In this document: positions 27,640-63,330 of the stretch, in pieces | Layout: each line of letters begins with the position of its first letter | Numbering within the stretch: position 1 is the stretch's first letter | NCBI GenBank assembly: GCA_937983055.1 | Contig: CALJLA010000211.1 | Location: 12,414 to 76,413, forward strand | Direction of reading: 5' to 3' | DNA: 64,000 nt | Source of the DNA: an uncultured Pseudomonadota bacterium | Lineage (GTDB): Bacteria > Pseudomonadota > Gammaproteobacteria > Burkholderiales > Eutrophovitaceae | Notes under the pieces: generated by a model | The model's input: only the letters and a program-made list of their open reading frames with translations | What the model was told of the DNA's origin: nothing | The model's database searches: none | Translations under genes and position numbers: made by a program

Positions 27640-27884
27640 GACTCGCATCCCTTCGTGCCTTCGGGCCTTTGTGTTTCTCTTTTCGGGACGAGTTCCGCTC
27701 GGTGCCGGGTGCCCAGGTGTCGCCCGATCGAGTCTGCGGTCATTGCCAGAATCGCATAGTGTACGCGTTCTTCAGGCGCCAGTTCGAGGGCAAGTGCGTG
27801 CACCAAGTACGAGTTCGGCCCGCAACTGCTGCCAGACTGCGCTGCTCGCGTTAGACCGCCTGGACCGATTCCCGGATGCGAGTC
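27640..27884. repeat. hairpin-family element (degenerate) enclosing a possible four-helix-bundle gene remnant
   Basis: An 11-nt perfect inverted repeat, gactcgcatcc (27640..27650) and ggatgcgagtc (27874..27884). The left arm continues as cccttcgtgccttcg, and atcccttcgtgccttcg (17 nt, 27646..27662) recurs in reverse complement at 32531..32547. Confidence 0.4.
27708..27815 (-). pseudogene. possible 3'-half remnant of a four-helix-bundle (23S rRNA IVS protein family) gene
   Basis: The minus-frame translation NSYLVHALALELAPEERVHYAILAMTADSIGRHLGT resembles the C-terminal helix pair of that family as I remember its consensus (..THLLLA.DLGYL.E.....L......IGRML.GL). There is no N-terminal half and no start codon. 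Confidence 0.3.
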
Positions 27885-27942
27885 GGCGCCACGCGCCACA
27901 GCGCATCCCGAGAGGCCGCGGCATCGACGCGCACGCCTGCCT

Positions 27943-28623
27943 TCAAGGTCGCTGTTTCTGGCTGCCTGCGGTTTCCGCTGGTGGCGCAGCGTCGGCGTGG
28001 GAGTAGCAGCCTGCCTCGGTGAGCACGGCGTCGAGTCGCTGGTCGTGCGGCCCGAGCGGCAGCGATTCGAGCACCTGCACCGAGAACGCGCCGGCCGCCT
28101 TGAAGACCCCATGCCCGAGCGTGGCAATCAGCCCGTCGTAATAGCCCCCGCCGTAACCCAACCGCTCGCCGCGCGCGGTGAAAGCCACACCGGGCACCAG
28201 CATGAACTCCAAGCTTGCCGCATCGACCGGCTCACAGCGCGTCGGGTCCGGTTCGAGAATACCCCACACACCGGGCCGCAGCTCGGCGTCCGGATCCGCC
28301 ACCCTGCACAGCTCCAGCCGCCGCCGGGAACGATCGACCCTCGGCAGCAGCAGCGCCTTGCCGTCGCCGAGCACCGACCGGATGAACGCGCCCGTGTCGA
28401 ACTCGGTGCCGAATGCGCTGTAGGCCGCCACGCAGCGCGCGGCCCGGTAGCGCGGGTGGCCAAGCAGCAAACCGGTGATGACGCCGCTCGCCGCCGCACG
28501 CGCCGCGCCGGACAGCGCCGCGCGCGCCGCGAGCACCTGCTCCCGCAGCGCGTGCTTCGCCTGAGCCAGCCGCTCGTCCCGCGCCGATGGCGTCGTGGCC
28601 GCGCGTGCATCACCCGCATGCAT
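27943..28623 (-). CDS. 5-formyltetrahydrofolate cyclo-ligase
   Basis: Start taken at ATG 28623. The C-terminus VPGVAFTARGERLGYGGGYYD is typical of the family. Confidence 0.8.
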   Translation of the reverse strand: MHAGDARAATTPSARDERLAQAKHALREQVLAARAALSGAARAAASGVITGLLLGHPRYRAARCVAAYSAFGTEFDTGAFIRSVLGDGKALLLPRVDRSRRRLELCRVADPDAELRPGVWGILEPDPTRCEPVDAASLEFMLVPGVAFTARGERLGYGGGYYDGLIATLGHGVFKAAGAFSVQVLESLPLGPHDQRLDAVLTEAGCYSHADAAPPAETAGSQKQRP

Positions 28624-28681
28624 CGTCTGCTCTTCGCTCCCCCGCTGCCCGGCGTTGCCCCGCATGGCGCATGGACCGCCG

Positions 28682-29335
28682 TCAGAAAACAAACCGCTCC
28701 GGCTGTCGAATGTTGCGAAGCGGTGGAATACAGGTCTCGAACAGGCCCGCGCTGTTCCAGGCCGTGTCGGTGAGCCGGGTGATCAGCGTCGCGGTCATCA
28801 CCGGAGGTTCGCCGATCACCGCAAGCAGCCGCCCGCCCAGCGCCAGCTGCGCCTTGAACGCCTCGGGCAGCAGCGGCACCGACCCGGTCAACAGAATGGC
28901 GTCGTAAGGCGCGAACGGCGACCAGCCCGAGGCCGCATCGCCGACTTCCAGTGTGACGTTGCGCAGGTCATGGCCGGCCAGCCTGCGCGCCGCGGCGTGA
29001 CTGAACTCGGCGATTCGCTCGACGCTGACCACATGCCCTGCCTGTCCGGCAAGCAGCGCAGTGACATAGCCGCTGCCGGTGCCGACTTCCAGCACCTTGT
29101 CCGCCGTCGTCAGCGCCAGCGACTGAAGCATCCGCGCCTCGAGCTTCGGTGTCAGCATGACTTCGCCATGGCCGAGCGGAATTTCCATGTCGGCAAAGGC
29201 CAGCGAGCGGTACTGCGGCGGCACGAATTCCTCGCGCTTCACCGTGAACAGCAGATCCAGCACCGCCTGGTCGAGCACGTCCCACGTGCGAATCTGGCTT
29301 TCGATCATGTTGAACCGCGCCTTCTCGACATCCAT
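28682..29335 (-). CDS. pcm: protein-L-isoaspartate O-methyltransferase family protein
   Basis: 217 aa from ATG 29335 (MDVEKARFNMIESQIRTW), with motif VLEVGTGSGYVTALLA. The longer listed ORF to 29752 runs into the thiC leader. Confidence 0.7.
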   Translation of the reverse strand: MDVEKARFNMIESQIRTWDVLDQAVLDLLFTVKREEFVPPQYRSLAFADMEIPLGHGEVMLTPKLEARMLQSLALTTADKVLEVGTGSGYVTALLAGQAGHVVSVERIAEFSHAAARRLAGHDLRNVTLEVGDAASGWSPFAPYDAILLTGSVPLLPEAFKAQLALGGRLLAVIGEPPVMTATLITRLTDTAWNSAGLFETCIPPLRNIRQPERFVF

Positions 29336-29435
29336 CGGAACGTGACGACCCCGGGGCGTTGAACGTGGCGTTAATGATACAGATGCTTTACCATCGGTAC
29401 TGCGTTGGGGGTCCTTCTGACGCTGCGCTTGCATG

Positions 29436-31475
<2,040 letters not shown>

Positions 31476-31502
31476 AATCGCCGCGTCTCCTACAGGCGGT
31501 CG

Positions 31503-31537
31503 GAAGCGGTGGGCCGATGACTCACCGCTTCTTTTTT
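31503..31537 (+). terminator. rho-independent terminator after thiC
   Basis: The stem gaagcggtg (31503..31511) pairs with caccgcttc (31523..31531) and is followed by tttttt. Confidence 0.75.
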
Positions 31538-31550
31538 GCACACGATTTCA

Positions 31551-32363
31551 ATGGATCTGATTAAGGCACTGCTGCTGGGCATCCTCGAGGGACTGACCGA
31601 GTTCATTCCAGTCTCCAGCACCGGACATCTGATCATCGCTTCCAGCCTGCTCGACTTCACCGATGAGCGTGCCAAGGTATTCGCCATCGTCATCCAGCTC
31701 GGCGCCATCTGCGCGGTGTGCTGGGCCTACCGCGACAAGCTGCTGGAGGTAACGCGGGGGCTGGGCCGCAACGCGGCGGCCAACCGCTTCGTCACGAACC
31801 TGCTGATCGCTTTTCTGCCGGCAGTAGTGATCGGCCTGCTGTTCCACCGTGTCATCAAGACCTACCTGTTCTCGCCGCTGACCGTGGCCGGCGCCCTGGT
31901 GGTCGGCGGCCTGGTCATCCTGTGGGCGGAGTCGCGATCGCACACCGCACGCCTGAACCATGTCGACGAGCTGCGCTGGCATGACGCGCTCAAGGTAGGC
32001 CTGGCGCAGACCGTCGCAATGTTTCCGGGCGTCTCGCGTGCCGGCGCCACCATCATCGGCGGCATGCTACTGGGCTTGTCGAGGGAGACCGCGACGCGCT
32101 TCTCGTTCTTTCTGGCCATTCCCACCATGCTGGGCGCCGCGGTCTACGACCTGTACCGGAACTGGTCGCTGTTGAATGCCGCCGACCTGCCGGTGTTCTG
32201 CGTCGGCTTTGCGGCGGCCTTTGCCGCCGCACTGCCGACGGTGCGGGCCCTGTTGAACTATGTGGCCCGACACAGTTTCCGGCCCTTTGCCTGGTACCGG
32301 ATTGCCTTCGGCGGGCTGGTGCTGCTGACCTGGCAGCTCGGCTGGGTGGATTGGTCAGATTAG
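31551..32363 (+). CDS. uppP: undecaprenyl-diphosphate phosphatase
   Basis: Start at ATG 31551 ([27 protein letters not shown]), because the listed TTG start 31536 lies inside the thiC terminator. Confidence 0.9.
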
Positions 32364-32390
32364 TTTTTTTCGCGCGAGCAAAACCTCGGT

Positions 32391-32467
32391 CGAACCACCC
32401 AGTCACCAGGAGAACCCCTCACCCGGTTTGCCCTGCCGTTTTGGCGTCTCGGTGTCTTGGTGGTTCG
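32391..32467. repeat. empty hairpin-family element
   Basis: The left arm cgaaccacccagtcaccaggaga pairs with the right arm tctcggtgtcttggtggttcg (9 perfect terminal bp, then imperfect pairing), with a ~33-nt loop. Confidence 0.6.
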
Positions 32468-32514
32468 CCCTATCTTTTCGCTTTAGAACGCACCCGGTGC
32501 GGACCCAAAGACAA

Positions 32515-32664
32515 GAACCAGAAGCGATACACGAAGGCACGAAGGGATCCAGATTTCCTTGTCTCGCCGCCAGATTATCGTCGGCGCCCTCTGCGTTGAG
32601 CGCCTTGCGCCGTCCAACGGCCGGCTTACCGAGCACTAAGCACTGAGCACCGAGCAACGAGCAC
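32515..32664. repeat. unpaired hairpin-family arms (gaaccagaagcgatacacgaaggcacgaaggg; tandem gagcac 7-9-mers)
   Basis: 32515..32546 carries a left-type terminal motif plus cgaaggcac repeats. 32631..32664 is gagcactaagcactgagcaccgagcaacgagcac. I saw no complementary partner nearby. Confidence 0.45.
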
Positions 32665-32670
32665 TGCTTT

Positions 32671-33123
32671 TCAGCTTTGCACCCAAGGCAATCCGGCCGC
32701 GCGCCAGCCACCGATCGTATTGCGATGGCCCTGGCTGTCCTTGTCGCCCTCGAAACCCTCGAGCACGTTGAATGCCTGCGCATAGCCCGCGGCGGCCGCG
32801 GCGGCCGCGGCCGCGTGCGAGCGGGCGCCGCTGCGACAGATGAACATGACCAACGCCTCCGGATCGACCCGCGCCTTGAGCTCGGCGATGAAGTCAGGGT
32901 TGAGCTGCCCTCCGGGGTATCGCTGCCATTCGATCTGCACCGCACCGGGTATGCGCCCGACGTAATCCCATTCAGCGCGAGTGCGCACATCGACAAGGCA
33001 CGCCCCGGGCGCCTTGCGCAGCACTTCGGCCGCTTCCGCGGGCAATAGTGCACCGTTGTAGGGCAGGGTTTGCGCTTCGCCACGCTGCTCGGCGGCGCTG
33101 ATGATATCGCTGAGTGAAGCCAT
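32671..33123 (-). CDS. rhodanese-domain sulfurtransferase
   Basis: 150 aa with the active-site loop FICRSGARS and a typical single-domain rhodanese layout. Confidence 0.8.
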   Translation of the reverse strand: MASLSDIISAAEQRGEAQTLPYNGALLPAEAAEVLRKAPGACLVDVRTRAEWDYVGRIPGAVQIEWQRYPGGQLNPDFIAELKARVDPEALVMFICRSGARSHAAAAAAAAAGYAQAFNVLEGFEGDKDSQGHRNTIGGWRAAGLPWVQS

Positions 33124-33242
33124 ATTCAGTCCTTAATTTAGATAGTTGTCTATTACTCCGGGCGCCCTGCCAAGAGCGACTGGCAAGTGTGCCCGGCTGT
33201 GGCGACGATCATCGCCCTGATTTGGGGCGGTATAATCCCGCC

Positions 33243-33259
33243 TGCACTATAAATGTGCA
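33243..33259 (+). promoter_or_regulatory. NtrC enhancer-type binding site
   Basis: tgcactataaatgtgca has the form TGCAC-N7-GTGCA (consensus TGCACCA-N3-TGGTGCA). It lies ~65 bp upstream of the sigma-54 promoter. Confidence 0.6.
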
Positions 33260-33321
33260 TCAAAGCCGCACTTCCATTCGATTTTATCTCTCAACTCTTT
33301 GTTTATTAGTAATTATTTGAC

Positions 33322-33337
33322 GGGCACGCTTCCTGCT
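33322..33337 (+). promoter_or_regulatory. sigma-54 (-24/-12) promoter of glnA
   Basis: gGGCACGcttccTGCT compared with the consensus TGGCACG-N4-TTGCT. The GG-N10-GC spacing is exact, and the site is ~50 nt upstream of the glnA ATG. Confidence 0.7.
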
Positions 33338-33389
33338 CATCTGCGTTTCCGATTTTCTACACCCAACCCGATAGTCCCAGGAGAACAAG

Positions 33390-34802
33390 ATGGCTTCACC
33401 AGCCGAAGTACTTAAGTTGATCAAGGACAAGGAGGTCAAGTTCGTCGACCTGCGGTTCACCGATACGCGTGGCAAGGAGCAGCACGTGTCCGTCCCGGCC
33501 AAGCAATTCGATGCTTCGAAGTTCGAAGACGGACATGCCTTCGACGGTTCATCGATCGCCGGCTGGAAAGGCATTCAGGCCTCCGACATGCTGCTGATGC
33601 CGGACGCGGATTCTGCGCGGATGGATCCTTTCAGCGATGAGCCCGTGCTGAACATCAGTTGCGACGTGATCGAGCCGTCCGACGGCAAGGGATACGACCG
33701 CGACCCGCGCTCGATTGCCAAGCGCGCCGAAGCCTACCTGAAGTCCAGCGGCCTGGGCGACATCGCCTACTTCGGACCAGAACCCGAGTTCTTCGTCTTC
33801 GACAGCATCACCTGGAAGGTGGACATGCAGGGCTGCTTCGTCAAGATCAACTCCGAAGAGGCCCCGTGGTCGACCGGCATCGAATTCGAGGGCGGCAACA
33901 TGGGCCACCGCGCTCCCGTCAAAGGCGGCTATTTCCCGGTGCCGCCGGTCGATTCCCTGCAGGATATCCGCAACGCGATGTGTCTTGCGCTGGAGGCCCA
34001 GGGCGTCGAAGTGGAAGTGCATCACCATGAAGTCGCCGCACCCGGCCAGTGCGAAATCGGCACCAAGTTCAACAGCCTGGTGAAGCGCGCCGACTGGATG
34101 CAGATCCTGAAGTACACCGTCTGGAATGTCGCGGCTTCCTACGGCAAGACGGCGACCTTCATGCCCAAGCCGGTCGTGGGCGACAACGGCTCGGGCATGC
34201 ACGTGCACCAGTCGGTGTGGAAGGGCGGCCAGAACCTGTTCGCGGGCAACGGCTATGCCGGGCTGTCGGAGTTCGCGCTCTACTACATCGGCGGGATCAT
34301 CAAGCACGCGCGTGCGCTGAACGCCATTACCAATCCCGGCACCAACTCCTACAAGCGACTGGTTCCCGGCTTCGAGGCGCCGATCAACCTGGCCTACTCG
34401 GCGCGAAACCGTTCCGCCGCCTGCCGGATTCCCCACGTGTCGAGCCCGAAAGCGCGCCGCGTTGAAGTGCGCTTCCCCGACCCGACGGCCAACCCGTATC
34501 TGGCATTCTCGGCGCTGCTGATGGCCGGCCTCGACGGCGTGCAGAACAAGATCCACCCGGGCGACCCGATTGACAAGAACCTCTACGACCTGCCGCCGGA
34601 AGAAGCGAAGAAGGTGCCGACGGTGTGCGCCTCGCTCGAGCAGGCCCTGGAGCACCTGGACAAGGAGCGCGCCTTCCTCACCAAGGGCGGCGTGTTCACC
34701 GACGACATGATCGACGCCTACATCGCGCTGAAGATGGAAGAGGTCACCCGGTTCCGGATGACCTCCCACCCGGTCGAGTTCGACATGTACTACAGCTCCT
34801 GA
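33390..34802 (+). CDS. glnA: glutamine synthetase type I
   Basis: 470 aa with [34 protein letters not shown] and the adenylylation-site region NLYDLPPEE. Confidence 0.95.
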
Positions 34803-34828
34803 CCCGCGCGCGGGCCGCGGGCCGAGAA

Positions 34829-51955: not shown

Positions 51956-54757
51956 ATGGAATTAGCCAAGAGCTTCGAGCCGAAAGCCATCGAGCAGCGC
52001 TGGTACCCGTTCTGGGAGTCGCGCGGATACTTTAGCGCCGATCCGAAGCGCAAGGGGCCCGCGTACTGCATCCAGCTGCCGCCGCCCAACGTCACCGGCA
52101 CGCTGCACATGGGCCATGCGTTCCAGCAGACGTTGATGGACGCGCTGATCCGTTATCACCGGATGCGCGGGCACAACACTAACTGGGTGGTCGGCACCGA
52201 TCATGCCGGTATCGCGACCCAGATAGTGGTCGAGCGCCAGCGCGAGGCGGAAGGCAAGGCGCGGCACGACCTCGGGCGCGAGGCATTTGTCGAGCGGGTG
52301 TGGGGCTGGAAACAACAGTCCGGGTCCACCATCACCCGCCAGATGCGTCGGCTGGGCACGTCCGCCAACTGGACCTACGCCGACACCGAGGGGCAGCGCG
52401 GCGGCTATTTCACCATGGATGCGCGCATGTCCCGCGCGGTATCCGAAGTGTTCGTTCGATTGCACGAGCAGGGCCTGATCTACCGCGGCAAGCGCCTGGT
52501 GAACTGGGACCCGGTGCTCGGGACCGCGGTATCGGATCTCGAGGTCGACAGCGAGGAAGAAGACGGCCGCCTTTGGGAAATCCGCTACCCTGGCGCCGAC
52601 GGCTCGGCCGGCGTAGTCGTTGCCACGACCCGGCCGGAGACGATGCTTGGTGACGTGGCCGTGGCGGTGCATCCGGAGGATGCGCGCTACCGAAACCTCG
52701 TCGGCAAGCAGCTCGTCCTGCCGCTGACCGGTCGAAGCATCCCGGTAATCGCCGACGAGTATGTCGATCCGGACTTCGGCACCGGCTGCGTCAAGATCAC
52801 GCCGGCCCATGATTTCAACGACTACCGGGTAGGTCAGCGGCACCACCTCGACGCGATCAGCGTCCTGACGCTCGACGCGAAGATCAGCGATGCCGCGCCC
52901 GAAGCCTATCGAGCGCTCGACCGCTTCGAAGCAAGAAAGCGCGTCCTGGAAGATCTCAAGACCCAGGGCCTCCTGGTGTCGGAGAAACCGCACAAGCTCA
53001 AGGTTCCACGCTCCGGGCGCACCGGCGTGGTGGTCGAGCCGATGCTCACCGACCAATGGTTCGTGCAGATGGAGGGCCTGGCGCGGCGCGGACTGGAGGC
53101 AGTTGCCAGCGGCGAGGTGAAGTTTTTTCCGGAACACTGGTCGGCGACCTACAACCACTGGCTGGAGAACATCCAGGACTGGTGCATTTCCCGGCAGCTC
53201 TGGTGGGGCCACCAGATTCCTGCGTGGTACGACGATGCGGGCAATATTTATGTTGCGCGCACCGAGGAAGCCGCGCGTCAGCAGGCCGCTGCCCGCGGTT
53301 ATCGCGGCGAACTGCGGCGCGACCCCGACGTGCTCGATACCTGGTTTTCCTCGGCGCTGGTGCCGTTCACCTCGCTGGGCTGGCCCGAACAGACACCCGA
53401 CCTCAAGGCTTTCCTGCCGTCCAACGTGCTGGTCACCGGCTTCGACATCATTTTCTTCTGGGTTGCCCGGATGATCATGATGACGCTGCATTTCACCGAT
53501 CAGGTGCCGTTCCGGCATGTCTACATCAATGCCCTGGTAAGAGACGCCGAGGGGCAGAAGATGTCCAAGTCCAAGGGGAACACGCTGGATCCGCTTGATC
53601 TGATCGACGGCATCACGCTGCCCGCGTTGCTGGAGAAGTCGACCGTTGGCCTGCTGCGCGCCGAACACAAGGCCAAGATCGAAAAGTACGTGCGCCGCAA
53701 TTACCCGGAGGGCATTCCGGCTTTCGGTGCCGATGCGCTGCGTTTCACCTTTGCGTCGCTGGCAACTTTTGCACGCACGCTCAACTTCGATTTGAATCGC
53801 TGCGAAGGCTACCGCAACTTCTGCAACAAGCTCTGGAATGCCACCCGCTTCGTGCTGATGAACTGCGAGGGGCAGGATTGCGGTCTCGAGCCGCACGACA
53901 CCTCGGAATGCGCGCCGGGTGGTTACCTGGAATTCTCCGCCGCCGACCGTTGGATCGTCAGCCAGCTCCAGCGCACCGAGGCCGAGGTGGAAAAGGGCTT
54001 TGCCGAGTACCGCTTCGACAATGCGGCCGGAGCGATCTACCGCTTCGTCTGGGACGAATATTGCGACTGGTACCTGGAGCTGGCAAAAGTCCAGCTACAG
54101 GGCGGCACTCCGGCGCAGCAGCGGGCCACCCGCCGCACGCTGCTGCGGGTGCTCGAGACGACGCTGCGGCTTGCACACCCGATCATTCCCTTCATCACCG
54201 AAGAGCTGTGGCAGAAGGTTGCGCCGATGGCCGGCCGAGAAGGCGAAACCATCATGCTCGCCCCCTATCCTCAAAGCGAGCCCGGCAAGATCGACGAGGC
54301 TGCGGAAGCGACGGTTCGCGAGCTGAAGGAACTCACAACCGCCTGTCGCAGCCTGCGTTCCGAGATGGGGTTGTCGCCCGCACAGCGCGTGCCGTTGCTG
54401 ATCAGCACCGACGAATCGCGCGCCGCCCGGCTGCGACCTTACCTCGTTGCGCTCGCGCGCCTGTCGGAGGTCACCGCCCTTGGCGGCGAACTGCCCAGGG
54501 CGGAGGCACCGGTTGCCATCGTCGGCGAGCACCGGCTGATGCTCAAAGTCGAAGTCGACGTTGCCGCCGAGCGCGAGCGCCTGGGCAAGGAAGTTGCGCG
54601 CCTCGAAGGCGAGATCGCCAAAGCCAACGCCAAGTTGGCGAACAAAAGCTTCGTCGAGCGCGCCCCCGCGAACGTCGTCGCCCAGGAAAAAGAACGACTC
54701 GACACCTTCAGCTCCACCCTGGAGAAGATACGGGGGCAACTGGCGCGGCTGCAATAG
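51956..54757 (+). CDS. valS: valine--tRNA ligase
   Basis: 933 aa with [14 protein letters not shown] (HIGH), KMSKSKGN (KMSKS) and a C-terminal coiled coil. Confidence 0.97.
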
Positions 54758-54782
54758 TGGCCGGTCTTCAACGAGGTAAGGC

Positions 54783-55369
54783 AAAAGCGAGGCGAACCAC
54801 CAAGGCACTAAGAAGGGTTCGAATCCTTGTCTACTCGACAAATCCTTGAGGGCGGCGATTGCCCGGGGAGTAAGTACTCGAATGCCTCAAGACGATGGTA
54901 GCGAGGCGATAGGCGTTCCTCTTGCGCATGCCCCGATCGGTGCAGACCTCGACTTCCTGGCAAAAAAAGGTCATCGATGCCGCGTTCAAGGTGCATCGGG
55001 TCCTCGGACCGGGCTTACTCGAGTCGGTCTACGAGGTGTGCTTATGCGAAGAACTGAGTATTCGGGGAATTTCCTTCACGCGGCAGCATCCGATTCCCAT
55101 TGTCTACGAGAGCGCCGTAATTGAGGCAGGACTGAGAATTGATCTCTTGATTCGCGATCAGTTGGTCGTTGAACTGAAGGCGGTCGAGCACCTCTTGCCA
55201 ATTCATGAAGCCCAGGTCCTCACCTATCTGAAGCTAGCCAAACTGCGGCTCGGACTGCTGATCAACTTCAACGTGCGGTCGTTCAAGCAAGGCATCCGAA
55301 GACTGATCTTATAGATGTTCAGAATTTTCTTGGTGTCCTTGGTGCCTTGGTGGTTCGATCAAAGCTTTT
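54783..55369 (+). mobile_element. hairpin-bounded cassette carrying a GxxExxY gene
   Basis: A perfect 16-nt inverted repeat, cgaaccaccaaggcac (54793..54808) and gtgccttggtggttcg (55342..55357), extended imperfectly outward to aaaagc (54783..54788) and gctttt (55364..55369). It encloses ORF 54922..55314. Mobility is inferred, not shown. Confidence 0.5.
54922..55314 (+). CDS. GxxExxY protein (PD-(D/E)XK nuclease-fold, PDDEXK_3-like)
   Basis: 130 aa with VIDAAFKVHRVLGPGLLESVYEVCL (the GxxExxY motif), DLLIRDQLVVELKAVEHLLPIHEAQVLTYLKL and LGLLINFN. Confidence 0.85.
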   Translation: MRMPRSVQTSTSWQKKVIDAAFKVHRVLGPGLLESVYEVCLCEELSIRGISFTRQHPIPIVYESAVIEAGLRIDLLIRDQLVVELKAVEHLLPIHEAQVLTYLKLAKLRLGLLINFNVRSFKQGIRRLIL

Positions 55370-56564: not shown

Positions 56565-56617
56565 TCCCTCTTCGCGCCAGACTTCTCCGCGCAGCATGCT
56601 GCCCGAACGCATTCCTG

Positions 56618-56642
56618 GGTGCCTTCGTGCCTTCGTGTTGCG
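56618..56642. repeat. solo right-type hairpin-family arm
   Basis: ggtgccttcgtgccttcgtgttgcg. Its reverse complement matches the left-arm core at 54793..54808 in 13 of 16 positions. Confidence 0.5.
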
Positions 56643-56663
56643 CTTTGAGCTTTTGAAAAGCAC

Positions 56664-56695
56664 TCAAAAGAAAACGGGCGCCCGAAGGCGCCCGT
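56664..56695 (-). terminator. rho-independent terminator of the porin gene
   Basis: The hairpin acgggcgcc-cgaa-ggcgcccgt is followed on the minus strand by a T-rich run (ttttctttt). Confidence 0.75.
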
Positions 56696-56726
56696 CCTGA
56701 TGCCGTGCTGCCTGACCTAAGTCAGA

Positions 56727-57902
56727 TCAGAACGTGTGCTTGATGCCGACGTACAGACCTTTGTGATCCGCACCATTGACCACATTGGTGCCGCCAACCG
56801 CGAGGTAGCTCGCGTTGGCGTCGTTGCTGGTCTGGTTGTAGATCACCTGGATCTGGGACTGCTTCGACAGATTGTGGAAGTAGCCGATTCCGATGTGGTC
56901 GGCACCGGTGTCAGGCGCCGTGCACGCGCCACCGACAGCGGTACAGTCCGCCTCGTCCGCCCAGCCGTACTGAACCGCGGCGTATCCGGTGGGCAGGTTC
57001 CACTTCACGCCCAGCCAGAACGCGTCGCGCTCCCACTCGGTCAGCGAACCAACCAGCGCGGTCGAGCCTTCGTACGTCAGCCGCTCCCAACGCGCGTTGA
57101 ACTGCCAGTCGCCGAAGGTGTAGCCGCCACCGATCTGGATGCCGGTGTCGTCGGTGCTGGTGTACGCGCCGGTCGCCGCACCCTTGTTGGCGCCAATCTG
57201 GTTGATGCCGCCGAAGTCGTCGTGGGTCTCATAAGCGACGTCGACGAAGAAGGGCATGCCTTCCGGCGCGTACTTGCCGCCAATCGAGAGTACCTTCGGG
57301 TCCGAGCCTGGGGTCTTGTACGCGCTAAGGGTGTAATCGACTTCGAAGCTGAAGCCGTTCCAGTTCGGGGACTCGTACCAGATGGTGTGGTCGGTGCGGC
57401 GATAGAAGCCCGCGCAGTTGCTGGTCGCATTCGGACCGCAACCAGACTGGCCAGCGTCAAACGCGGTGCCCACGCCCGGGTTGGAGAGGATCATCAGATT
57501 GCCGCCCGGCCCGAGCGCGCCGTCCAGGAAGTCGGACGAGTACTGCATGCGCTCATACACGTTTTCGTTCGTGCCGTACTTGAAACCACCCCAGTTGCCG
57601 ACGATACCGAGGAAGCTGTTACGGTTGAAGGGGTTTGCACCCGGGGTCGCGTCCTGGATGTTCACCTGGAGCTGCAGGTGGAACACGACCTTGTTGCCGT
57701 TGCCGATGTCATCCACCGACTCGATGTCTACGTGCGAATAGTTGCTGGCCAGCGAAGTCCTGGTGACGTCGTTGGCACCGCCGCCGCTGGACTTGCCGTA
57801 CAACAGGCCAGTCGCGATCGCACCGCTGATCGTGACGTCGGCCATCGCGGCCGGTGCGGCGAACAGGCCCGCCACCGCCACTGCGATAAGGCTCTTCTTC
57901 AT
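56727..57902 (-). CDS. outer-membrane porin (Gram-negative porin, Porin_4-like)
   Basis: 391 aa with signal peptide MKKSLIAVAVAGLFAAPAAMA, Gly/Tyr-rich beta-strand periodicity and a C-terminal ...VGIKHTF. Confidence 0.85.
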   Translation of the reverse strand: MKKSLIAVAVAGLFAAPAAMADVTISGAIATGLLYGKSSGGGANDVTRTSLASNYSHVDIESVDDIGNGNKVVFHLQLQVNIQDATPGANPFNRNSFLGIVGNWGGFKYGTNENVYERMQYSSDFLDGALGPGGNLMILSNPGVGTAFDAGQSGCGPNATSNCAGFYRRTDHTIWYESPNWNGFSFEVDYTLSAYKTPGSDPKVLSIGGKYAPEGMPFFVDVAYETHDDFGGINQIGANKGAATGAYTSTDDTGIQIGGGYTFGDWQFNARWERLTYEGSTALVGSLTEWERDAFWLGVKWNLPTGYAAVQYGWADEADCTAVGGACTAPDTGADHIGIGYFHNLSKQSQIQVIYNQTSNDANASYLAVGGTNVVNGADHKGLYVGIKHTF

Positions 57903-58207
57903 GCTATCTCCTTAATGGTTAGCTCAAGCCGGTCGGGCGAAAAGTCCGCCCTCCCTGAGGAGCGCCGGGCTTGTCCCGCCCGGATCACCCCACCCTTTTT
58001 CTTAACCTCTCCCGGGAAAGAAGAAGTCGCGTCGATTGTGCCAAAGCGCAACAAAGCGAAGCAAGCATCAACCGTCTGAAAGAAGGCGTCTTCCGAATTG
58101 GGTGTTGCGAAATAGATACATCGCAGCGCACAATAACTCGGCTTATCCACAGCCGACGTAGTTTTCGCCTCGGTTTAGGAACTTACGCCCCTGACTTAAT
58201 CCGGGTT

Positions 58208-59044
58208 CTAACTTTTCGGGGCAACTTGTTTGCCGGGCACCGGAGGCACCTCCGAAACACCGAAAAGCCTGGCCAGCGCGGCACCCGGGTCATCCGCACG
58301 CATGAACGCTTCGCCCACGAGAAAGGCGTTGACGCCGGCCGCGCGCATGCGCGCCACATCGTCTGGCGCCAGAATCCCGCTCTCGGTCACCACCAGCTTG
58401 CCGTCGGGAATGTCCGCCAGCAGGTCGAGCGTGGTCTCGAGGCGGGTGTCGAAAGTACGCAGATTGCGGTTATTGATGCCGACAAGCGGCGTCTTCAGCC
58501 TGAGCGCGCGCGCAAGCTCCGCCGCGTCATGCGCTTCCACCAGCGTCGCCATCCCCAGCGCCGTCGCGGTCGCTTCCAGCTCGGCCATTTGCGCATCGGT
58601 CAGCGCCGCAACGATCAGCAGGATGCAGTCGGCCCCCATCGCCCGCGCCTCGAATACCTGGTAGGCATCGATCATGAAGTCCTTTCGCAGCACCGGCAGG
58701 CCACTCGCCTCGCGCGCGCGCGCCAGGTACGACGGATGGCCCTGAAAGAACTGCACGTCAGTCAGCACGGAAAGGCATGCCGCCCCGTGCTTCGCATACG
58801 ACGCCCCGATTGCAGCAGGGTCGAAGTGTTCGCGCAGGACGCCCTTGCTCGGACTCGCCTTCTTCACCTCTGCGATGACGGCCGGCAGCCCGGCGCCGAT
58901 CTTTTCCCGGAGCGCGCCGACGAAATCACGCGGCGCGGGCATGCGCTCCGCGTCTGCACGAATTGCCGTCAACGGGGCGGCTTTCGCCGCCACAGCAACT
59001 TCATCGCGCTTGACGGCGAGGATTCTGTCGAGGATGTCAGGCAT
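58208..59044 (-). CDS. trpC: indole-3-glycerol phosphate synthase
   Basis: 278 aa with [13 protein letters not shown] and [13 protein letters not shown]. Confidence 0.93.
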
Positions 59045-59099
59045 TCACGGGTTCGACGAGGGCAGACGGGGTTCGGGCGCAAACGCAGCTTCGCGAGGG

Positions 59100-60125
59100 T
59101 TACGCACTGAGCGCCCTGGTATAGGCGATGAACTCTTCCAGTTTCCTGGCGGCCGCGCCGCTGCGCAGGAGATCGCGCGCGATCCTGACCCCGCCGCCGT
59201 GGTCCTCCGCCAGACCCGCGACATAGATGGCCGCGCCGGCGTTCAACGCGACGATGTCGGATGCCGGGCCATCGCCTCCATTGAGCGCGGTCAGCAGCAT
59301 GTCCTTCGCCTGGCCGGCGTCGCTCACCTGAATGGCTTCCAGAGACGCCTCCCTGAGGCCAAACTTGCGGGGATGCACGCTGTACTCGCGGATCACGCCA
59401 TCGCGCAGCTCGCCGACCGCGGTCTCGCCGCCGATGGAAATCTCGTCGAGGCCTTCGGCCCCATGCACCACCATCACATGCCGGCTGCCCAGGCGCTGCA
59501 GCACGCGCACCTGGATGCCAACCAGGTCGGGATGGAACACGCCCATGACCTGGTTTCTGGCGCCAGCAGGGTTGGTCAGCGGGCCGAGAATGTTGAACAG
59601 CGTGCGCACCCCGAGCTCACGGCGCACCGGCGCCGCATGCTTCATCGCGGAATGATGGCTGGGCGCGAACATGAAGCCCACACCCACTTCGTCGATGCAC
59701 CGGGCGACCTGCGCCGGGGTCACGTTCAGGTTCGCACCCAGCGACTCGAGCACGTCGGCGCTGCCCGACTTGCTCGATACCGACCGGCCGCCATGCTTCG
59801 CGACCCGAGCGCCGGCGGCGGCGGCCACGAACGCCGCCGCAGTGGATATATTGAAGGTGTGCGCGCTGTCGCCGCCGGTGCCGCAGGTATCGAGCAGATG
59901 GGCATCGTCAGATACCGGCACCTTGGTCGAGAACTCGCGCATCACCTGGGCGGCGGCCGCAATTTCGCCGATGGTCTCTTTCTTGACCCGCAGGCCGACA
60001 ATCAGCGCCGCGATCAGCGTCGGAGACATCTCGCCGCTCATGATCTGCCGCATCAGGTCCAGCATCTCCTCGTGAAAAATCTCCCGATGCTCGATCACGC
60101 GAACCAGCGCTTCCTGGGGCGTCAT
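59100..60125 (-). CDS. trpD: anthranilate phosphoribosyltransferase
   Basis: 341 aa with [27 protein letters not shown]. Confidence 0.95.
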
Positions 60126-60694
60126 TACCGCTTCTCCTCCAGGAAATTCTTCAGCAGTTCATGGCCGTGTTCGGTAAGAATCGACTCCGGATGAAACTGC
60201 ACGCCCTCGATCGGCAGGCTCTTGTGGCGCACGCCCATGATTTCGCCGTCGTCGGTCCAGGCCGTTACTTCCAGACAGTCGGGCATCGACGAGCGCTCGA
60301 TCACCAGGGAGTGGTAGCGCGTGGCGATCAGCGGATCGGGCAACGCCCTGAACACGCCTTTACCCTCATGCCTGACAGGCGAGGTCTTGCCGTGCATCAG
60401 CGTCGCGGCATGCACGATGCGCCCGCCAAAGGCCTGGCCGATGCTCTGGTGGCCGAGGCACACGCCGAGAATCGGGACCCGCCCGGCAAACGCCTTGATC
60501 AGCGGCACCGACACCCCGGCCTCGTTCGGCGTGCAGGGCCCGGGCGACACCACGATGCGCTCCGGCGTCAGTCGCTCGACCTGCTCCAGCGAGATCTCGT
60601 CGTTCCGGTACACCCGCACCTCCTCGCCCAGTTCTCCGAAGTACTGGACAAGGTTGTAAGTGAACGAGTCGTAGTTGTCGATCATCAGGAGCAT
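60125..60694 (-). CDS. trpG: anthranilate synthase component II (glutamine amidotransferase)
   Basis: 189 aa with [26 protein letters not shown] and GVQFHPES. Confidence 0.93.
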
Positions 60695-60710
60695 TTTCTC
60701 GGTCCTAGGA

Positions 60711-60877
60711 TTTGACCACGGAGGACACGGAGGGAAATCGAAACAAAACGGCGAACCACCAAGGCACCAGGTGATCTGATCTGAGGAATCTTTATTCTTT
60801 GGTGCTCTTGGTGAACTTGGTGTCCGTGGTGGTTCGCCTTCGCCCTTGGTTGTCCTCCGCGTCCTCCGTGGTTCAAA
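60711..60877. repeat. empty ~167-nt hairpin-family element between trpE and trpG
   Basis: The outer stem is tttgaccacggaggacacggagg with cctccgcgtcctccgtggttcaaa. The inner stem is ggcgaaccaccaaggcaccagg (60750..60771) with cttggtgtccgtggtggttcgcc (60816..60838). There is no ORF inside. Confidence 0.75.
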
Positions 60878-60884
60878 CTCGCCC

Positions 60885-62360
60885 TTAGTTGATCCTGGCG
60901 TTCAAGCCAGCCTGCGCCATCTCGGCTGCGCGCAACAGCGCGCGGGCCTTGTTCTGGGTCTCGATCCATTCGTTCTTGGGCACAGAGTCGGCGACAATGC
61001 CGGCACCCGCCTGAACGTACAGCATGCCATCCTTGATCACGGCGGTGCGAATCGCGATGGCCAGATCCATGTCCCCGCCGAACCCGAGGTAACCGACGGC
61101 CCCGGCATAGATGCCGCGCTTGGACGGCTCCAGCTCTTCGATGATCTCCATCGCGCGAATCTTCGGTGCGCCGGACACCGTGCCGGCCGGAAACGTCGCC
61201 TTGAGCACCGCCATCGCGTCCAGCCCCGGCTTCAGCCGCCCTTCAACGTTGGAGACGATGTGCATCACGTGCGAGTAGCGTTCGATCACCATGCTGTCGG
61301 ACACCTTGACCGAACCGATGTCCGCCACCCGGCCGACATCGTTGCGGCCGAGGTCCATCAGCATGACGTGCTCGGCGCGCTCCTTGGGGTCGGCCAGCAG
61401 ATCCTGCTCCAGCGCGAGATCCTCCTCGCGCGTCCCGCCGCGCGGCCGGCTGCCGGCAATCGGCCCCAGCGTGACCACACCGCTTTCCAAGCGAACCAGG
61501 ATCTCCGGCGATGCGCCGACCACATGAAAGCCGCCCATGTCGAAATAGAACATGTAGGGCGAGGGATTCAGCGCGCGCAGTGCGCGGTACAGGGACAGGG
61601 GCGAAGCGCTGAAGGGCGCGCTCATCCGCTGGGACAGCACCACCTGCATGATGTCGCCGTCGTAGATGTAGCGCTTGGCCCGATCCACCGCCGCCATGAA
61701 GTCCGCTTCGGCAAACTCCGACCGCGCAACGGCCGCGACAGACGGCGCCTCGGGCGGCACCACCACCGGCTGCCTGAGCATCCAGAGCAGCTCTTCCAGC
61801 CGCTTCTGGGCGCGGGCCCAGGTTCCTTCTTCGCCCGGGTCCGCGTAGACCACCAGAAACAGTTTGCCCGACAGGTTATCGAGCACCACCAGCTGGTCGG
61901 ACAGCAGCAGCAGGATATCGGGCGTGTGCAGCACATCCGGCTTGTCGACTGCGGCAACGCGCCTCTCGATGTACTTGACCGTTTCGTAACCGAAGCAGCC
62001 GACCAGCCCCCCGAGAAACCTCGGCAGCCCTGGGCGCGGCGCCGCGCGAAGCCGCGCATGCTGGGCGGCGATCCAGTCGAGTGGATTGTCCTGTTCGCTG
62101 TCGGACACTACGGTGTCGCCGCGCAGTTCGCGGCAACGCCTGCCCCGCACCTCAAACCTTGTGTGCGCCGGCAGCCCGATGAAGGAATAGCGTCCGAAGC
62201 GCTCCCCACCCTGCACCGACTCCAGAAGATAGGAGTAAGGCTTGTTGGCAAGCTTCAGATAGACGGACAGCGGGGTGTCGAGATCGGCAAAGGTTTCCAG
62301 AACGACCGGAACCCGGTTGAAACCCTGCGCGGCAAGCTGCTTGAACTCCTGCTCAGTCAT
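60885..62360 (-). CDS. trpE: anthranilate synthase component I
   Basis: 491 aa with [18 protein letters not shown] and the C-terminal [20 protein letters not shown]. Confidence 0.95.
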
Positions 62361-62492
62361 GACGAACTCCGGAAACGCTGAAAAACGAGAGGGCTTTGCG
62401 TGTCAGACGCGACGCCAGCAGGCGCTCTGGCGCCACCAGCGCCAGCCGGCCCACTGCGCAAACCTCAGGCTCTCATGCGTGTGGAGTTTCAT
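62361..62492 (-). promoter_or_regulatory. trp leader: 29-codon Trp-rich leader peptide (62403..62492) plus structured region and U-run
   Basis: The minus-strand ORF ATG AAA CTC ... encodes MKLHTHESLRFAQWAGWRWWRQSACWRRV* (5 Trp). The segments CUGGCGC, GCGCCAG and CUGGCGU can pair in mutually exclusive ways. A UUUUU run lies at 62381..62385, 20 nt before the trpE ATG. Confidence 0.65.
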
Positions 62493-63190
62493 GACCGGAA
62501 GGGTCTTGTCAGATCGAGCACTTCGGAAACGGTCGCTACTATAGCATCGCAGTCGAGATCCGTTAGCGCCATGCCGCCGCGATATCCATAGGGCACGCAG
62601 AAGACCGGGCAGCCGGCCGCCCGGGCCGCGGCGATATCGGTTTGCGAGTCGCCCACCATCAGCAGCCGCTCAGCGGACACCCCGAAGCTTTGCGCGCAGT
62701 GAAGCAATGGCAAGGCATCCGGCTTCTTGCGAGGCAGCGTATCGCCCGCGACGACGAGGTCGAGCCTCGCGCGCAGGCCGACCGCCTCGAGCAGGGGCAG
62801 GGTAAAGGCCTCCGGTTTGTTCGTAACGCAGGCGAGCTTCTGACCCCGGGCCCGCAGCGCATCCAGCGCCGGCACGACGCCCGGAAACGGCCTGGACGCC
62901 CTCACCAGGACCTCCCGGTAGTGCTCGCGGAACCTGGAGCGCGCCTGCTCGAACACGTCGGTATCGGGCTCTCCGGTCATCGTGCCGGTCAGCATTCGCT
63001 TCACCAGCCGGTCGACGCCCTCGCCGACATACGAACGCACCTTCTCCACGCCGATCGGCGAACGGCCAAGGTCCTTGAGGGTGCGATTGGCCGCCTCGTG
63101 CAGATCCGGCAGCGTCTCGACCAGGGTGCCGTCGAGATCGAAGGCCACCGCGGCGATCTCGATTGGAAAGGCGACGCTCGACTTAACCAC
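62489..63190 (-). CDS. gph: phosphoglycolate phosphatase (HAD family)
   Basis: Contains AVAFDLDGTLVETLPDL plus HAD motifs. The start is uncertain: GTG 63190 lies in the hairpin arm, and a downstream GTG just before AFDLDGT is possible. The listed ATG 63274 lies inside the hairpin element. Confidence 0.85.
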   Translation of the reverse strand: MVKSSVAFPIEIAAVAFDLDGTLVETLPDLHEAANRTLKDLGRSPIGVEKVRSYVGEGVDRLVKRMLTGTMTGEPDTDVFEQARSRFREHYREVLVRASRPFPGVVPALDALRARGQKLACVTNKPEAFTLPLLEAVGLRARLDLVVAGDTLPRKKPDALPLLHCAQSFGVSAERLLMVGDSQTDIAAARAAGCPVFCVPYGYRGGMALTDLDCDAIVATVSEVLDLTRPFRS

Positions 63191-63330
63191 GGAGACGCAG
63201 AGACACAGAGGAAATCTCGCAGGAAAGGCAACTCGCTCGACTCGCAAACCGGCACGCGCCCGGCAAGCACGCAACCGACACAGAAGACATTCAGCCCTTT
63301 CTCTGTGCCTCTGTGTTTCTGTGGTTCAAG
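63182..63330. repeat. empty hairpin-family element between rpe and gph
   Basis: The left arm cttaaccacggagacgcagagacacagaggaaa (63182..63214) pairs with the right arm tttctctgtgcctctgtgtttctgtggttcaag (63298..63330). In the 26-position core, 22 are Watson-Crick. There is no ORF inside. Confidence 0.7.

What the first reader, a model, noticed from the sequence alone, without database searches (positions are those of the whole stretch)
27640..63330. Family of low-complexity hairpin cassettes bounded by (G)AACCAC...GTGGTT(C), inserted between housekeeping genes; cargo families match rRNA intervening sequences
Seven intergenic loci in the housekeeping half carry arms made of short tandem 7-9-mers (ccttggtg / ccttcgtg, cacggagga, cagagac, gagcac). 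The arms end in a shared terminal motif and pair into long imperfect hairpins: 32391..32413 with 32447..32467, 54783..54817 with 55328..55369, 60711..60771 with 60816..60877, and 63182..63214 with 63298..63330. A weaker pair lies at 27640..27650 with 27874..27884, and unpaired arms lie at 32515..32546, 32631..32664 and 56618..56642. One copy encloses an intact GxxExxY (PD-(D/E)XK-fold) gene, one seems to enclose half of a four-helix-bundle gene, and three are empty. All sit exactly in spacers of conserved gene pairs (waaA|folate ligase, uppP|rhodanese, valS|MFS, trpE|trpG, rpe|gph). I saw none in the spacers of the 27-kb LPS cluster. The four-helix-bundle family is the one known from 23S rRNA intervening sequences, which are excised at a flanking stem by RNase III. 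I have not established the same for the GxxExxY family. These loci therefore look like IVS-type cassettes and MITE-like empty derivatives living in mRNA operons. There they could impose RNase III processing, transcript stabilisation or translational masking. I am not aware of a described mechanism for their spread.
Basis: partly seen in the sequence, partly recalled or inferred. Interest (0 to 1): 0.75.

Follow-up and report, generated by a model that had tools for sequence, protein, structure and literature searches.

The report
Hairpin-enclosed nuclease gene cassettes in operons
The spacers between housekeeping genes here carry members of a very widespread but apparently undescribed family of long DNA/RNA hairpins, which are either empty or enclose a small nuclease gene, and which are built like the "intervening sequences" known from ribosomal RNA genes.

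Summary
Five intact hairpins, one nested inside another, and four decayed arms lie in six intergenic spacers between 27 and 64 kb. Their arms are tandem 8-mers (CAC-NN-AGG / CCT-NN-GTG) that end in a conserved palindromic terminus, YGAACCAC...GTGGTTCR. One hairpin encloses an intact GxxExxY (PDDEXK_3) gene.

Relatives show gain and loss at the same sites. Full GxxExxY cassettes sit at trpE|trpG and trpD|trpC where this window has an empty nested hairpin or nothing. Relatives also show decayed copies.

Element sizes are bimodal: 60-200 nt (empty) and about 450-585 nt (six of seven carry GxxExxY). Thirteen of 15 GxxExxY genes are arm-enclosed, and all of those between known genes are co-oriented with their neighbours. 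The cargo is under strong purifying selection (dN/dS about 0.09).

Four-helix-bundle genes (the rRNA-IVS protein family) sit in the same kind of tandem-repeat hairpin inside operons elsewhere. The published Coxiella IVS has the same layout.

Not supported:
- the "half four-helix-bundle gene" at 27640-27884;
- location in rRNA;
- target-site duplications;
- any strand bias in folding.

RNase III processing and the mobility mechanism remain inferred. Verdict: an IVS-like/REP-like cassette family, a new variant of a known kind.

The parts
32391..32467 (+). Empty hairpin in the uppP|rhodanese spacer, 28 nt after the uppP stop. Termini are CGAACCAC...GTGGTTCG.
   Evidence: I5; MFE -38.1, z -3.5.
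32515..32546 (+). Unpaired left-arm remnant (GAACCAgAAGcgataCACGAAGGCACGAAGG). Its partner has decayed.
   Evidence: z +0.42, no better than shuffles.
32628..32664 (+). Unpaired period-7 arm remnant (GAGCACN x5) abutting the rhodanese stop.
27645..27680 (+). Right-arm-type remnant (CCTTCGTG CCTTCGGG CCTTTGTG TTTC) downstream of waaA. A possible degenerate left partner is at 27508-27535. No four-helix-bundle coding remnant is present.
   Evidence: (z +0.15).
54793..55357 (+). Full cassette between valS and the MFS gene: left arm 54793-54817, loop with ORF, right arm 55325-55357.
   Evidence: (I16, 95% complementary). Orthologous cassettes are in L084/L095 and L090.
54928..55314 (+). GxxExxY / PDDEXK_3 gene (128 aa from the ATG), with a PD-(D/E)XK fold and invariant E32, D72, E82 and K84.
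   Evidence: dN/dS 0.09 against L095.
56613..56642 (+). One-armed remnant (CCTGGGTG CCTTCGTG CCTTCGTG) in the MFS|porin spacer. The relative L095 has an intact empty hairpin at this site.
60713..60875 (-). Outer empty hairpin in the trpE|trpG spacer (TGACCACGGAGGACACGGAGG ... CCTCCGCGTCCTCCGTGGTTCA).
   Evidence: I21; MFE -85.5, z -8.8. L095 has a full GxxExxY cassette in this spacer.
60752..60836 (-). Inner empty hairpin nested in the loop of the outer one (CGAACCACCAAGGCACCAGG ... GTCCGTGGTGGTTCG).
63183..63328 (-). Empty hairpin in the rpe|gph spacer. The rpe stop TGA (63326-63328) lies in one terminus. The called gph start GTG (63188-63190) lies in the other.
   Evidence: P0121 has this start. 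Decayed orthologous copies are in L091 and L093.

Best explanation
These loci belong to one very widespread class of palindromic 'hairpin cassettes'.

Anatomy. Two arms are built from tandem 8-mers (5' arm CAC-NN-AGG, 3' arm CCT-NN-GTG, with NN matched between arms). They end in the conserved palindrome YGAACCAC...GTGGTTCR. The arms enclose either a short loop (empty form, 60-200 nt) or a promoterless gene for a small GxxExxY PD-(D/E)XK nuclease (about 450-600 nt).

Shown. The elements settle in short spacers inside or at the ends of operons, in the sense orientation. Over evolutionary time they are gained, nested, emptied and eroded.

Inferred. They are transcribed by read-through from the host operon. 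In the transcript the arms pair into a 25-35-bp stem that sets the cassette apart from the neighbouring cistrons, and this stem is the natural substrate for a double-strand RNase such as RNase III. That is how the stems of ribosomal intervening sequences (IVS) work, and the anatomy is the same: tandem short repeats in the stem and an ORF in the loop. On this reading rRNA IVS and these mRNA-spacer elements are two habitats of one kind of element.

Cargo. Cargo-bearing copies are not junk. The nuclease and the 3' arm are kept by purifying selection at a fixed site. The termini are often co-opted as the stop codon (TGA) or start codon (GTG/ATG) of the flanking genes.

More weakly inferred. The GxxExxY nuclease acts on the conserved termini or hairpin of its own family, and so accounts for the spread of cassettes and of the far more numerous empty copies. 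This would parallel the way RAYT transposases (the enzymes that mobilise REP repeats) relate to REP/REPIN elements.
For: Structure:
- The stems fold far better than shuffles.
- On 56 elements defined by the left arm plus the 7-nt terminus only, 82.9% of 28 terminal pairs are standard pairs, against 67.4% in shuffles (0 of 500 shuffles as high). Slid registers give 34-46%. Nineteen pairs change on both sides.

Family size:
Nearly every hit is a clear member, across 38-70% GC.
- The 132 two-armed elements are bimodal in size. Six of seven in the 454-585 nt class carry GxxExxY.
- Thirteen of 15 distinct GxxExxY genes have such arms. Twelve score z 6.8-16, and one more was seen by eye.

Gain and loss:
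- L095 has full cassettes at trpE|trpG and trpD|trpC and an intact hairpin at porin|MFS.
- L091 has a hairpin at trpG|trpD and decayed arms at valS|MFS.
- L093 lacks most of them.
- The window has a nested pair at trpE|trpG.

Orientation and expression:
- All GxxExxY genes lying between known genes are co-oriented with them, and so are 3 of 3 four-helix-bundle genes.
- No promoter-like site lies beside the cassette, and no T-tract follows the stems.

Selection:
- dN/dS is 0.09 for the valS-site cargo, against 0.10-0.26 for neighbouring genes.
- Same-site orthologues are 68-78% identical, whereas paralogues within one genome are 51-53% identical.
- The 3' arm is 28/33 identical between the window and L095 (my count from the sequences), while the linkers cannot be aligned.

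IVS parallel:
- The Coxiella IVS has an AG-rich tract, tandem GACAGAT heptamers of variable number, an S23p ORF, and an RNase III cut at the first repeat (PMC4990558).
- Four-helix-bundle genes in fad operons are enclosed by tandem 7-8-mer arms (z 4.6-15.5), with 6 to 35 units among strains that share an identical protein.

Nuclease:
- The AlphaFold model has pLDDT 92 and a PD-(D/E)XK fold. E, D, E and K residues are invariant.
Against: - Nothing here shows RNA cleavage.
- The sense strand does not fold better than the antisense strand (7 of 13 oriented elements; 3 of 6 cargo-bearing ones). The stems therefore give no G-U signature of selection at the RNA level, and could equally matter as DNA cruciforms or single-strand hairpins.
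- There are no target-site duplications.
- I found no near-identical copies at different loci, so recent transposition is not demonstrated.
- Long vertical residence under purifying selection fits a domesticated gene as well as a selfish one.
- Two unrelated cargo families (nuclease and four-helix bundle) share the architecture. This weakens the idea that the cargo is the mobility enzyme.
- No member was found inside an rRNA gene, so the link to IVS rests on architecture and on the four-helix-bundle family.
- The fold matches to solved nucleases are all weak (E > 0.01).
Confidence: 0.6

Rival explanations
1. DNA-level mobile element. The hairpins are the DNA ends of a REPIN/RAYT-like or IS200/IS605-like system. 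The GxxExxY nuclease cuts single-stranded or cruciform DNA at YGAACCAC/GTGGTTCR and moves cassettes and empty copies. Any RNA stem is a by-product. This overlaps with the best explanation and differs on where the stem matters.
For: - The 8-bp palindromic terminus is conserved while the inner units vary.
- There are no target-site duplications, as with IS200/IS605 and REP elements.
- Folding shows no strand asymmetry.
- Arms and GxxExxY are tightly associated.
- Copies occur nested and in tandem.
- Empty copies are abundant in viral contigs that lack the gene.
- The catalytic residues of a metal-dependent DNA nuclease fold are invariant.
Against: - Cargo orientation is always sense, which a purely DNA-level element does not require.
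- The arm is conserved at a fixed orthologous site, and selection at the level of the element does not explain that.
- The same architecture holds a four-helix-bundle protein that is not a nuclease.
- No recent identical copies were seen.
Confidence: 0.3
2. Host regulatory hairpins that arise in place. These would be REP-like stabilisers or insulators of operon mRNA, made by slippage of short repeats and not mobile. GxxExxY genes would merely be captured in them.
For: - Positions lie strictly in operon spacers.
- Repeat number varies through slippage: 6 to 35 units in strains with an identical protein, and variable heptamer numbers in Coxiella.
- The valS-site arm is conserved.
- Termini serve as stop and start codons.
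Against: - The same 8-nt terminus and unit grammar recur across 38-70% GC and in phage contigs, which independent origin in place cannot explain.
- Presence and absence differ among close relatives, and one element is nested in another.
- Empty copies erode without compensatory changes (L091 and L093 at rpe|gph; remnants with z about 0).
Confidence: 0.12
3. True rRNA intervening sequences that have strayed. The window elements would be members of the IVS family proper, carrying IVS proteins.
For: The architecture is identical to the Coxiella IVS. The four-helix-bundle family occurs in the same style of cassette.
Against: - There is no rRNA in the window or in 40 arm-bearing loci.
- The cargo is PDDEXK_3, not PF05635.
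- There is no four-helix-bundle remnant in the window.
- The arms of the four-helix-bundle cassettes use different units and termini.
Confidence: 0.05
4. Chance low-complexity sequence or an assembly artefact.
For: The window is a metagenome contig. The weak pair at 27640/27874 is consistent with chance.
Against: The same elements are assembled independently in several samples and projects. The folding and covariation statistics also argue against chance.
Confidence: 0.01

Closest known systems
23S rRNA intervening sequences with an ORF (Coxiella burnetii, Leptospira; S23p / four-helix-bundle protein, PF05635)
   Same: Both have a long stem formed by terminal inverted repeats. The 5' arm is purine-rich and built of tandem 7-8-mers whose number varies between strains. 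A small promoterless ORF in the sense orientation sits in the loop. ORF-less versions exist. Distribution is sporadic (PMC4990558).
   Different: The elements here lie in mRNA spacers, not in rRNA helices. The cargo is a PD-(D/E)XK nuclease (PDDEXK_3). The terminus YGAACCAC is specific to this family. The cargo is under strong purifying selection, whereas Coxiella S23p is reported to be decaying. RNase III cleavage is shown for IVS and is only inferred here.
REP / REPIN elements and their RAYT transposases
   Same: Both are short intergenic palindromes that are very abundant and lack target duplications. Both have a protein gene flanked by inverted copies of the same repeat. Both sit in operon spacers, where they can affect mRNA.
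   Different: The associated protein is a PD-(D/E)XK nuclease, not a Y1 HUH transposase. It is multi-copy per genome (three copies in 10 kb of L095), with paralogues only about 52% identical. The arms are tandem 8-mers, not a single REP with a GTAG head.
MITEs such as Neisseria Correia elements
   Same: Both have terminal inverted repeats, a size of 60-200 bp and intergenic positions within transcripts. Correia transcripts are cut by RNase III (my recollection of De Gregorio et al., not checked here).
   Different: There is no target-site duplication. No transposase-bearing parent element is known. The arms are internally repetitive.
Integron gene cassettes with attC hairpins
   Same: Both are promoterless, co-oriented small genes associated with an imperfect palindrome that is recognised as a folded strand.
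   Different: Here the palindrome encloses the gene instead of following it. There is no integrase or attI nearby. The copies are scattered singly in housekeeping operons, not arrayed.

Membership tests
rRNA intervening sequence (IVS) | Inserted in a helix of a 23S (or 16S) rRNA gene | tested here: not met
   Rfam finds no rRNA in the window or in 40 arm-bearing metagenome loci. All window copies lie between protein-coding genes.
rRNA intervening sequence (IVS) | Terminal inverted repeats that form a long stem | tested here: met
rRNA intervening sequence (IVS) | Excised from the transcript by RNase III without religation | not testable with these tools
   This needs RNA end mapping in wild type against an rnc mutant. 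The stems of 25-35 bp are long enough for RNase III (inference).
rRNA intervening sequence (IVS) | The ORF, when present, belongs to the S23p / four-helix-bundle family (PF05635, TIGR02436) | tested here: not met
   The cargo is PF13366/TIGR04256. No PF05635 signal occurs anywhere in the window.
rRNA intervening sequence (IVS) | Tandem short repeats in the 5' stem arm, variable in number (Coxiella type) | tested here: met
   Unit number differs between orthologous copies.
GxxExxY protein / PDDEXK_3 (cargo) | Match to TIGR04256 and PF13366 above the curated cut-offs, with the PD-(D/E)XK core residues | tested here: met
   148 bits against a cut-off of 35, and 146 bits against 22. E32, D72, E82 and K84 are invariant. 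The fold is confirmed.
MITE | Target-site duplication flanking the terminal inverted repeats | tested here: not met
   In 48 elements, direct repeats of 2-6 nt occur at about chance level.
MITE | A longer parent element with the same ends that encodes a transposase | tested here: inconclusive
   Longer forms with the same ends exist and encode GxxExxY. No transposase activity is known for that family (PMC3424549 lists its function as unknown).
REP/REPIN-RAYT | The associated gene is a Y1 (HUH) transposase of the IS200/IS605 type | tested here: not met
   The associated gene is a PD-(D/E)XK nuclease.
Intrinsic terminator | A GC-rich stem followed by a T-tract | tested here: not met
   The ends read GTGGTTCG/A and no T-run follows. 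The terminator scan picks up only the porin terminator at 56671-56698 and small sub-stems.

The most novel reading that the evidence does not exclude
GxxExxY nucleases and GAACCAC-type hairpins form a previously unrecognised, very widespread system of self-insulating, promoterless gene cassettes. The nuclease would recognise the hairpin or terminus of its own family, as RNA or DNA, and so spread cassettes and thousands of empty copies through operon spacers and phage genomes. The classical rRNA intervening sequences, which carry four-helix-bundle cargo, would be only the rRNA-resident branch of the same element class. This would give a function to two large 'unknown' protein families and a mechanism for the origin of IVS.
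Probability: 0.3. Interest if true: 0.85.

Novelty: new variant of a known kind. Interest (0 to 1): 0.7.

Why it matters
If this reading is right, the intervening sequences of rRNA are one habitat of a much larger class of hairpin-enclosed mini-gene cassettes. Their origin and spread have been unexplained for decades. The class pervades operons of environmental bacteria and also phage genomes.

- It links two large uncharacterised protein families to a defined nucleic-acid structure. These are GxxExxY/PDDEXK_3, with about 35,000 clusters at 50% identity, and the four-helix-bundle/S23p family.
- It predicts specific processing sites inside housekeeping operons (trp, rpe-gph, valS).
- It explains a common source of spurious ORFs (MNHRGTE..., ...LCLCVSVV) and of mis-called start codons, and possibly of assembly breaks in metagenomes.
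- It makes the mobility question testable, because there is now a conserved 8-bp terminus and a candidate nuclease.

Tried and rejected
- **Four-helix-bundle remnant at 27640-27884.** Six-frame translation was tested against Pfam at E<=10, NCBIfam, and a local HMM built from 120 real four-helix-bundle proteins and run with --max. Nothing was found.
- **Known RNA family.** Rfam at gathering thresholds gave nothing for the window. A permissive scan of the trpE|trpG hairpin gave only meaningless miRNA-like hits.
- **Location in rRNA.** 0 of 40 arm-bearing loci contain rRNA.
- **Strand asymmetry (G-U signature) of the stems.** None was found.
- **Target-site duplications and a flank consensus.** Only the palindrome extends by one base (Y...R), and the flanks are A/T-rich. 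The metagenome set is biased because I required an ATG.
- **Other cargo.** ORFs inside mid-sized elements (L175, L123, L142, L157, L149) have no Pfam family.
- **Close relatives among GTDB species representatives, using TrpG.** The best match is 83% identical, and only 1 of 80 loci (L006) carries an arm. This was not useful for defining exact empty sites.
- **GxxExxY genes in viral contigs.** Only one was found, although empty hairpins abound there.
- **Literature.** No paper in the held library contains the arm sequences. GxxExxY and PDDEXK_3 appear only in annotation lists.
- **attC/integron, tRNA-like and terminator readings.** These were considered and rejected on anatomy.
- **First look-up of the cargo protein.** It failed because of the wrong start codon.

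Full report
**Source and setting.** The window matches a metagenome contig (ENA ERZ869938 NODE_165). It comes from a betaproteobacterium of about 65% GC with no close species representative; the best TrpG match is 83% identical. The right-hand half encodes housekeeping genes:
- waaA, 25975-27501
- 5-formyltetrahydrofolate cyclo-ligase, 27943-28692 (-)
- uppP, 31536-32363
- a rhodanese
- valS, 51956-54757
- an MFS transporter
- a porin
- trpC, trpD, trpG and trpE
- gph and rpe

.

**Check of the observation.**
It finds none of this type in the first 27 kb.
- GAACCAC and its complement occur as inverted pairs at four loci.
- The arms are up to 95% complementary.
- As RNA, the trpE|trpG element folds at -85.5 kcal/mol, against -48.7 +/- 4.2 for shuffles (z -8.8). 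The uppP element gives z -3.5, the rpe|gph element z -2.7 and the 601-nt valS cassette z -3.1.
- The trpE|trpG element is really two hairpins. The inner one (60752-60836, CACCAAGG-type arms) sits in the loop of the outer one (60713-60875, CACGGAGG-type arms).
- The cargo at 54928-55314 is an intact GxxExxY/PDDEXK_3 gene.

Two parts of the observation fail:
- The "half four-helix-bundle gene" at 27640-27884 matches nothing in Pfam, in NCBIfam, or in a local profile of 120 real four-helix-bundle proteins run without filters.
- The one-armed loci (27498-27690 and 32480-32680) fold no better than shuffled sequence. They are eroded remnants.

**Grammar of the arms.**
- The 5' arm reads YGAACCAC followed by units CAC-NN-AGG.
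- The 3' arm reads units CCT-NN-GTG followed by GTTCR.
- NN differs between elements (CA, GG, AG, GA, AA, TA) but matches between the two arms of one element.
- I took 56 elements from the window, relatives, viral contigs and metagenomes. They were defined only by the left arm and the 7-nt right terminus. Of the 28 terminal positions, 82.9% form standard pairs, against 67.4% when partners are shuffled (0 of 500 shuffles as high) and 34-46% when the register is slid. Nineteen pairs show changes on both sides.
- The palindrome extends one base beyond GAACCAC (Y...R).
- Beyond that the flanks are not complementary, and there is no target-site duplication.

**Comparison with relatives.** I fetched syntenic blocks through the cargo protein and Gph.
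- One relative (L084/L095/L096; Gph 69% identical by local alignment) has rpe-gph-trpE-[GxxExxY]-trpG-trpD-[GxxExxY]-trpC-porin-(hairpin)-MFS-[GxxExxY]-valS. Every nuclease gene is enclosed by arms of the same grammar.
- Where that genome has a full cassette at trpE|trpG, the window has the nested empty pair.
- Where it has a cassette at trpD|trpC, the window has a plain 55-bp spacer.
- Where it has an intact empty hairpin at porin|MFS, the window has a one-armed remnant.
- Two further relatives (L091, L093) have no nuclease gene in the block. L091 has a hairpin at trpG|trpD, where the window's genes overlap, and decayed arms at valS|MFS. Both carry eroded but recognisable copies at rpe|gph.
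- A more distant genome (L090) again has valS-[GxxExxY]-MFS with CACCAAG-type arms.
- GxxExxY genes also lie between trpE and trpG in two gammaproteobacterial MAGs (L036, L037). Another lies after trpD in a Thiobacillus MAG (L012).
- Every GxxExxY gene that lies between known genes is co-oriented with them.

**Breadth of the family.**
The same pattern with a leading AT hit the limit in JGI metagenomes. Almost every hit is an obvious member, in DNA of 38-70% GC.
- The 132 two-armed elements fall into two size classes. Most are 60-200 nt (mode about 90). A second class spans 454-585 nt, and six of its seven members carry GxxExxY; the seventh holds an ORF with no known family.
- Conversely, 13 of 15 distinct GxxExxY genes in hand are enclosed by such arms (plus L095 trpE|trpG by eye).
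- Many homologues begin MNHQGTK, MNHRDTE and the like. This is the terminus and units read as codons: ATG AAC CAC ....
- The protein family comprises 35,136 clusters at 50% identity at E <= 0.001.
- No solved structure matches it by sequence, and Pfam-based surveys list its function as unknown (PMC3424549).
- No paper in the held library contains the arm sequences.

**The cargo.**
- The AlphaFold model is confident (pLDDT 92.4) and has the PD-(D/E)XK nuclease fold. Its nearest solved relatives are Cas4 SSO0001, lambda exonuclease and Bax1. More remote are splicing and homing endonucleases and Hjc. All of these matches are weak (E > 0.01).
- E32, D72, E82, K84, Q96 and Y100 are invariant in 51 homologues.
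- At the valS|MFS site the gene evolves with dN/dS 0.09 between the window and L095. This is as constrained as trpG (0.10) and more so than MFS, trpD or gph (0.19-0.26).
- Same-site copies are 68-78% identical. The three paralogues in one genome are only 51-53% identical. The insertions are therefore old, independent and maintained.
- The 3' arm at that site is 28/33 identical between the two genomes (my count from the sequences), while the linkers between arm and ORF cannot be aligned. At least in cargo-bearing copies, the arm itself appears to be under selection.

**Link to rRNA intervening sequences.**
- The Coxiella burnetii IVS is the best-studied ORF-bearing IVS. Its description reads: an AG-rich tract, then three tandem heptamers (GACAGAT; two in some strains), then the S23p ORF. 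RNase III cuts at the first repeat in the stem (PMC4990558). That is the same anatomy.
- I then fetched real four-helix-bundle (PF05635) genes. Their genomic places were between fadB and fadA, or between two acyl-CoA dehydrogenase genes. All are co-oriented with their neighbours.
- Each is enclosed by inverted arms built of tandem 7-8-mers of a low-GC type (GAGATNT / ANATCTC; z 4.6-15.5).
- In four strains with an identical protein, the 3' array has 6, 20, 20 and 35 units.
- Three things are not shown. No member of the GAACCAC family was found in an rRNA gene (0 of 40 loci tested). I found no GxxExxY in an IVS. I found no four-helix-bundle cargo inside GAACCAC arms.

**How it probably works.**

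Shown:
- the structure;
- the sense orientation;
- the lack of an obvious promoter or T-tract terminator;
- gain, loss, nesting and erosion;
- selection on the cargo and on one arm.

Inferred: the cassette is transcribed by read-through. The arms pair in the mRNA, and the stem is processed by RNase III as in IVS. This frees or insulates the cassette while leaving the flanking cistrons usable.

The termini are frequently part of the neighbours' signals:
- The rpe stop codon lies in the left terminus in three lineages, as TGA, TAA and TAG.
- The trpD stop in L095 is the TGA of TGAACCAC.
- The called starts of gph and of the MFS gene are the GTG of GTGGTTC.

More weakly inferred: the nuclease acts on its own family's termini and spreads the elements.

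Against an RNA-only view, sense and antisense strands fold equally well. Against the cargo-as-transposase view, a non-nuclease cargo uses the same architecture.

**Verdict.** The finding is real and largely correctly interpreted, apart from the four-helix-bundle remnant and some details. It is best filed as a new variant of known kinds (IVS; REP/REPIN-like palindromes): a hairpin-enclosed PD-(D/E)XK gene cassette family with abundant empty derivatives. The family is extremely widespread and, as far as the searchable literature shows, undescribed.

Noticed in passing
window 62403-62492 (-), gph|trpE spacer: There is a Trp-rich leader ORF, MKLHTHESLRFAQWAGWRWWRQSACWRRV (5 Trp in 29 aa). Its ATG overlaps the gph stop (ATGA), and a stem plus T-run follows. 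It is conserved in L091, L093 and L095. It looks like a classical trp attenuator leader, and Rfam reports nothing there.
   Followed up: partly
window 63188-63190 and 55350-55352; L091 and L093 rpe|gph; L095 14327-14329: The element termini double as gene signals. The GTG of GTGGTTC is the called start of gph and of the MFS gene. The TGA of TGAACCAC is the stop of rpe (TAA and TAG in two relatives) and of trpD in L095. Gene callers also extend ORFs through the arms (for example trpC in L095, and the MNH... N-termini).
   Followed up: partly
window 54816-54826: An exact GGTTCGAATCC, the canonical tRNA T-arm/loop 11-mer, sits just inside the left arm of the valS cassette. ARAGORN finds no tRNA anywhere in the window.
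   Followed up: partly
L338-L341 (four-helix-bundle cassette between fadB and fadA): The 3' arm is a tandem array that varies from 6 to 35 units (152 to 714 nt) among four metagenome strains. Their four-helix-bundle protein is identical. The 160 nt upstream are identical in the three strains compared (L338, L339, L341).
   Followed up: yes
proteins P0241-P0253: The best-scoring representatives of the GxxExxY family are proteins of about 270-295 aa with two tandem GxxExxY domains. They may be fusions of adjacent cassettes.
   Followed up: no
window 1-16000 against 16000-64000: The left part of the LPS/glycosyltransferase region is 54-60% GC, against 62-73% elsewhere. This suggests horizontally acquired DNA, and it carries none of the hairpins.
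   Followed up: no
L095 9865-10010 (rpe|gph spacer of the relative): At the site where the window has a GAACCAC hairpin, this relative has a different GC-rich palindrome (GCGCGGACAGCGCCGGCAGGCGGGCGG ... CCGCCCGCCGGCGCTGTTGCC) that is not of this family.
   Followed up: no
window 32364-32670 (uppP|rhodanese spacer): One 307-bp spacer holds one intact hairpin and two eroded arms of different unit types. Tandem or nested copies also occur in L104, L250, L294 and L305. This suggests that existing elements or their spacers are preferred landing sites.
   Followed up: partly
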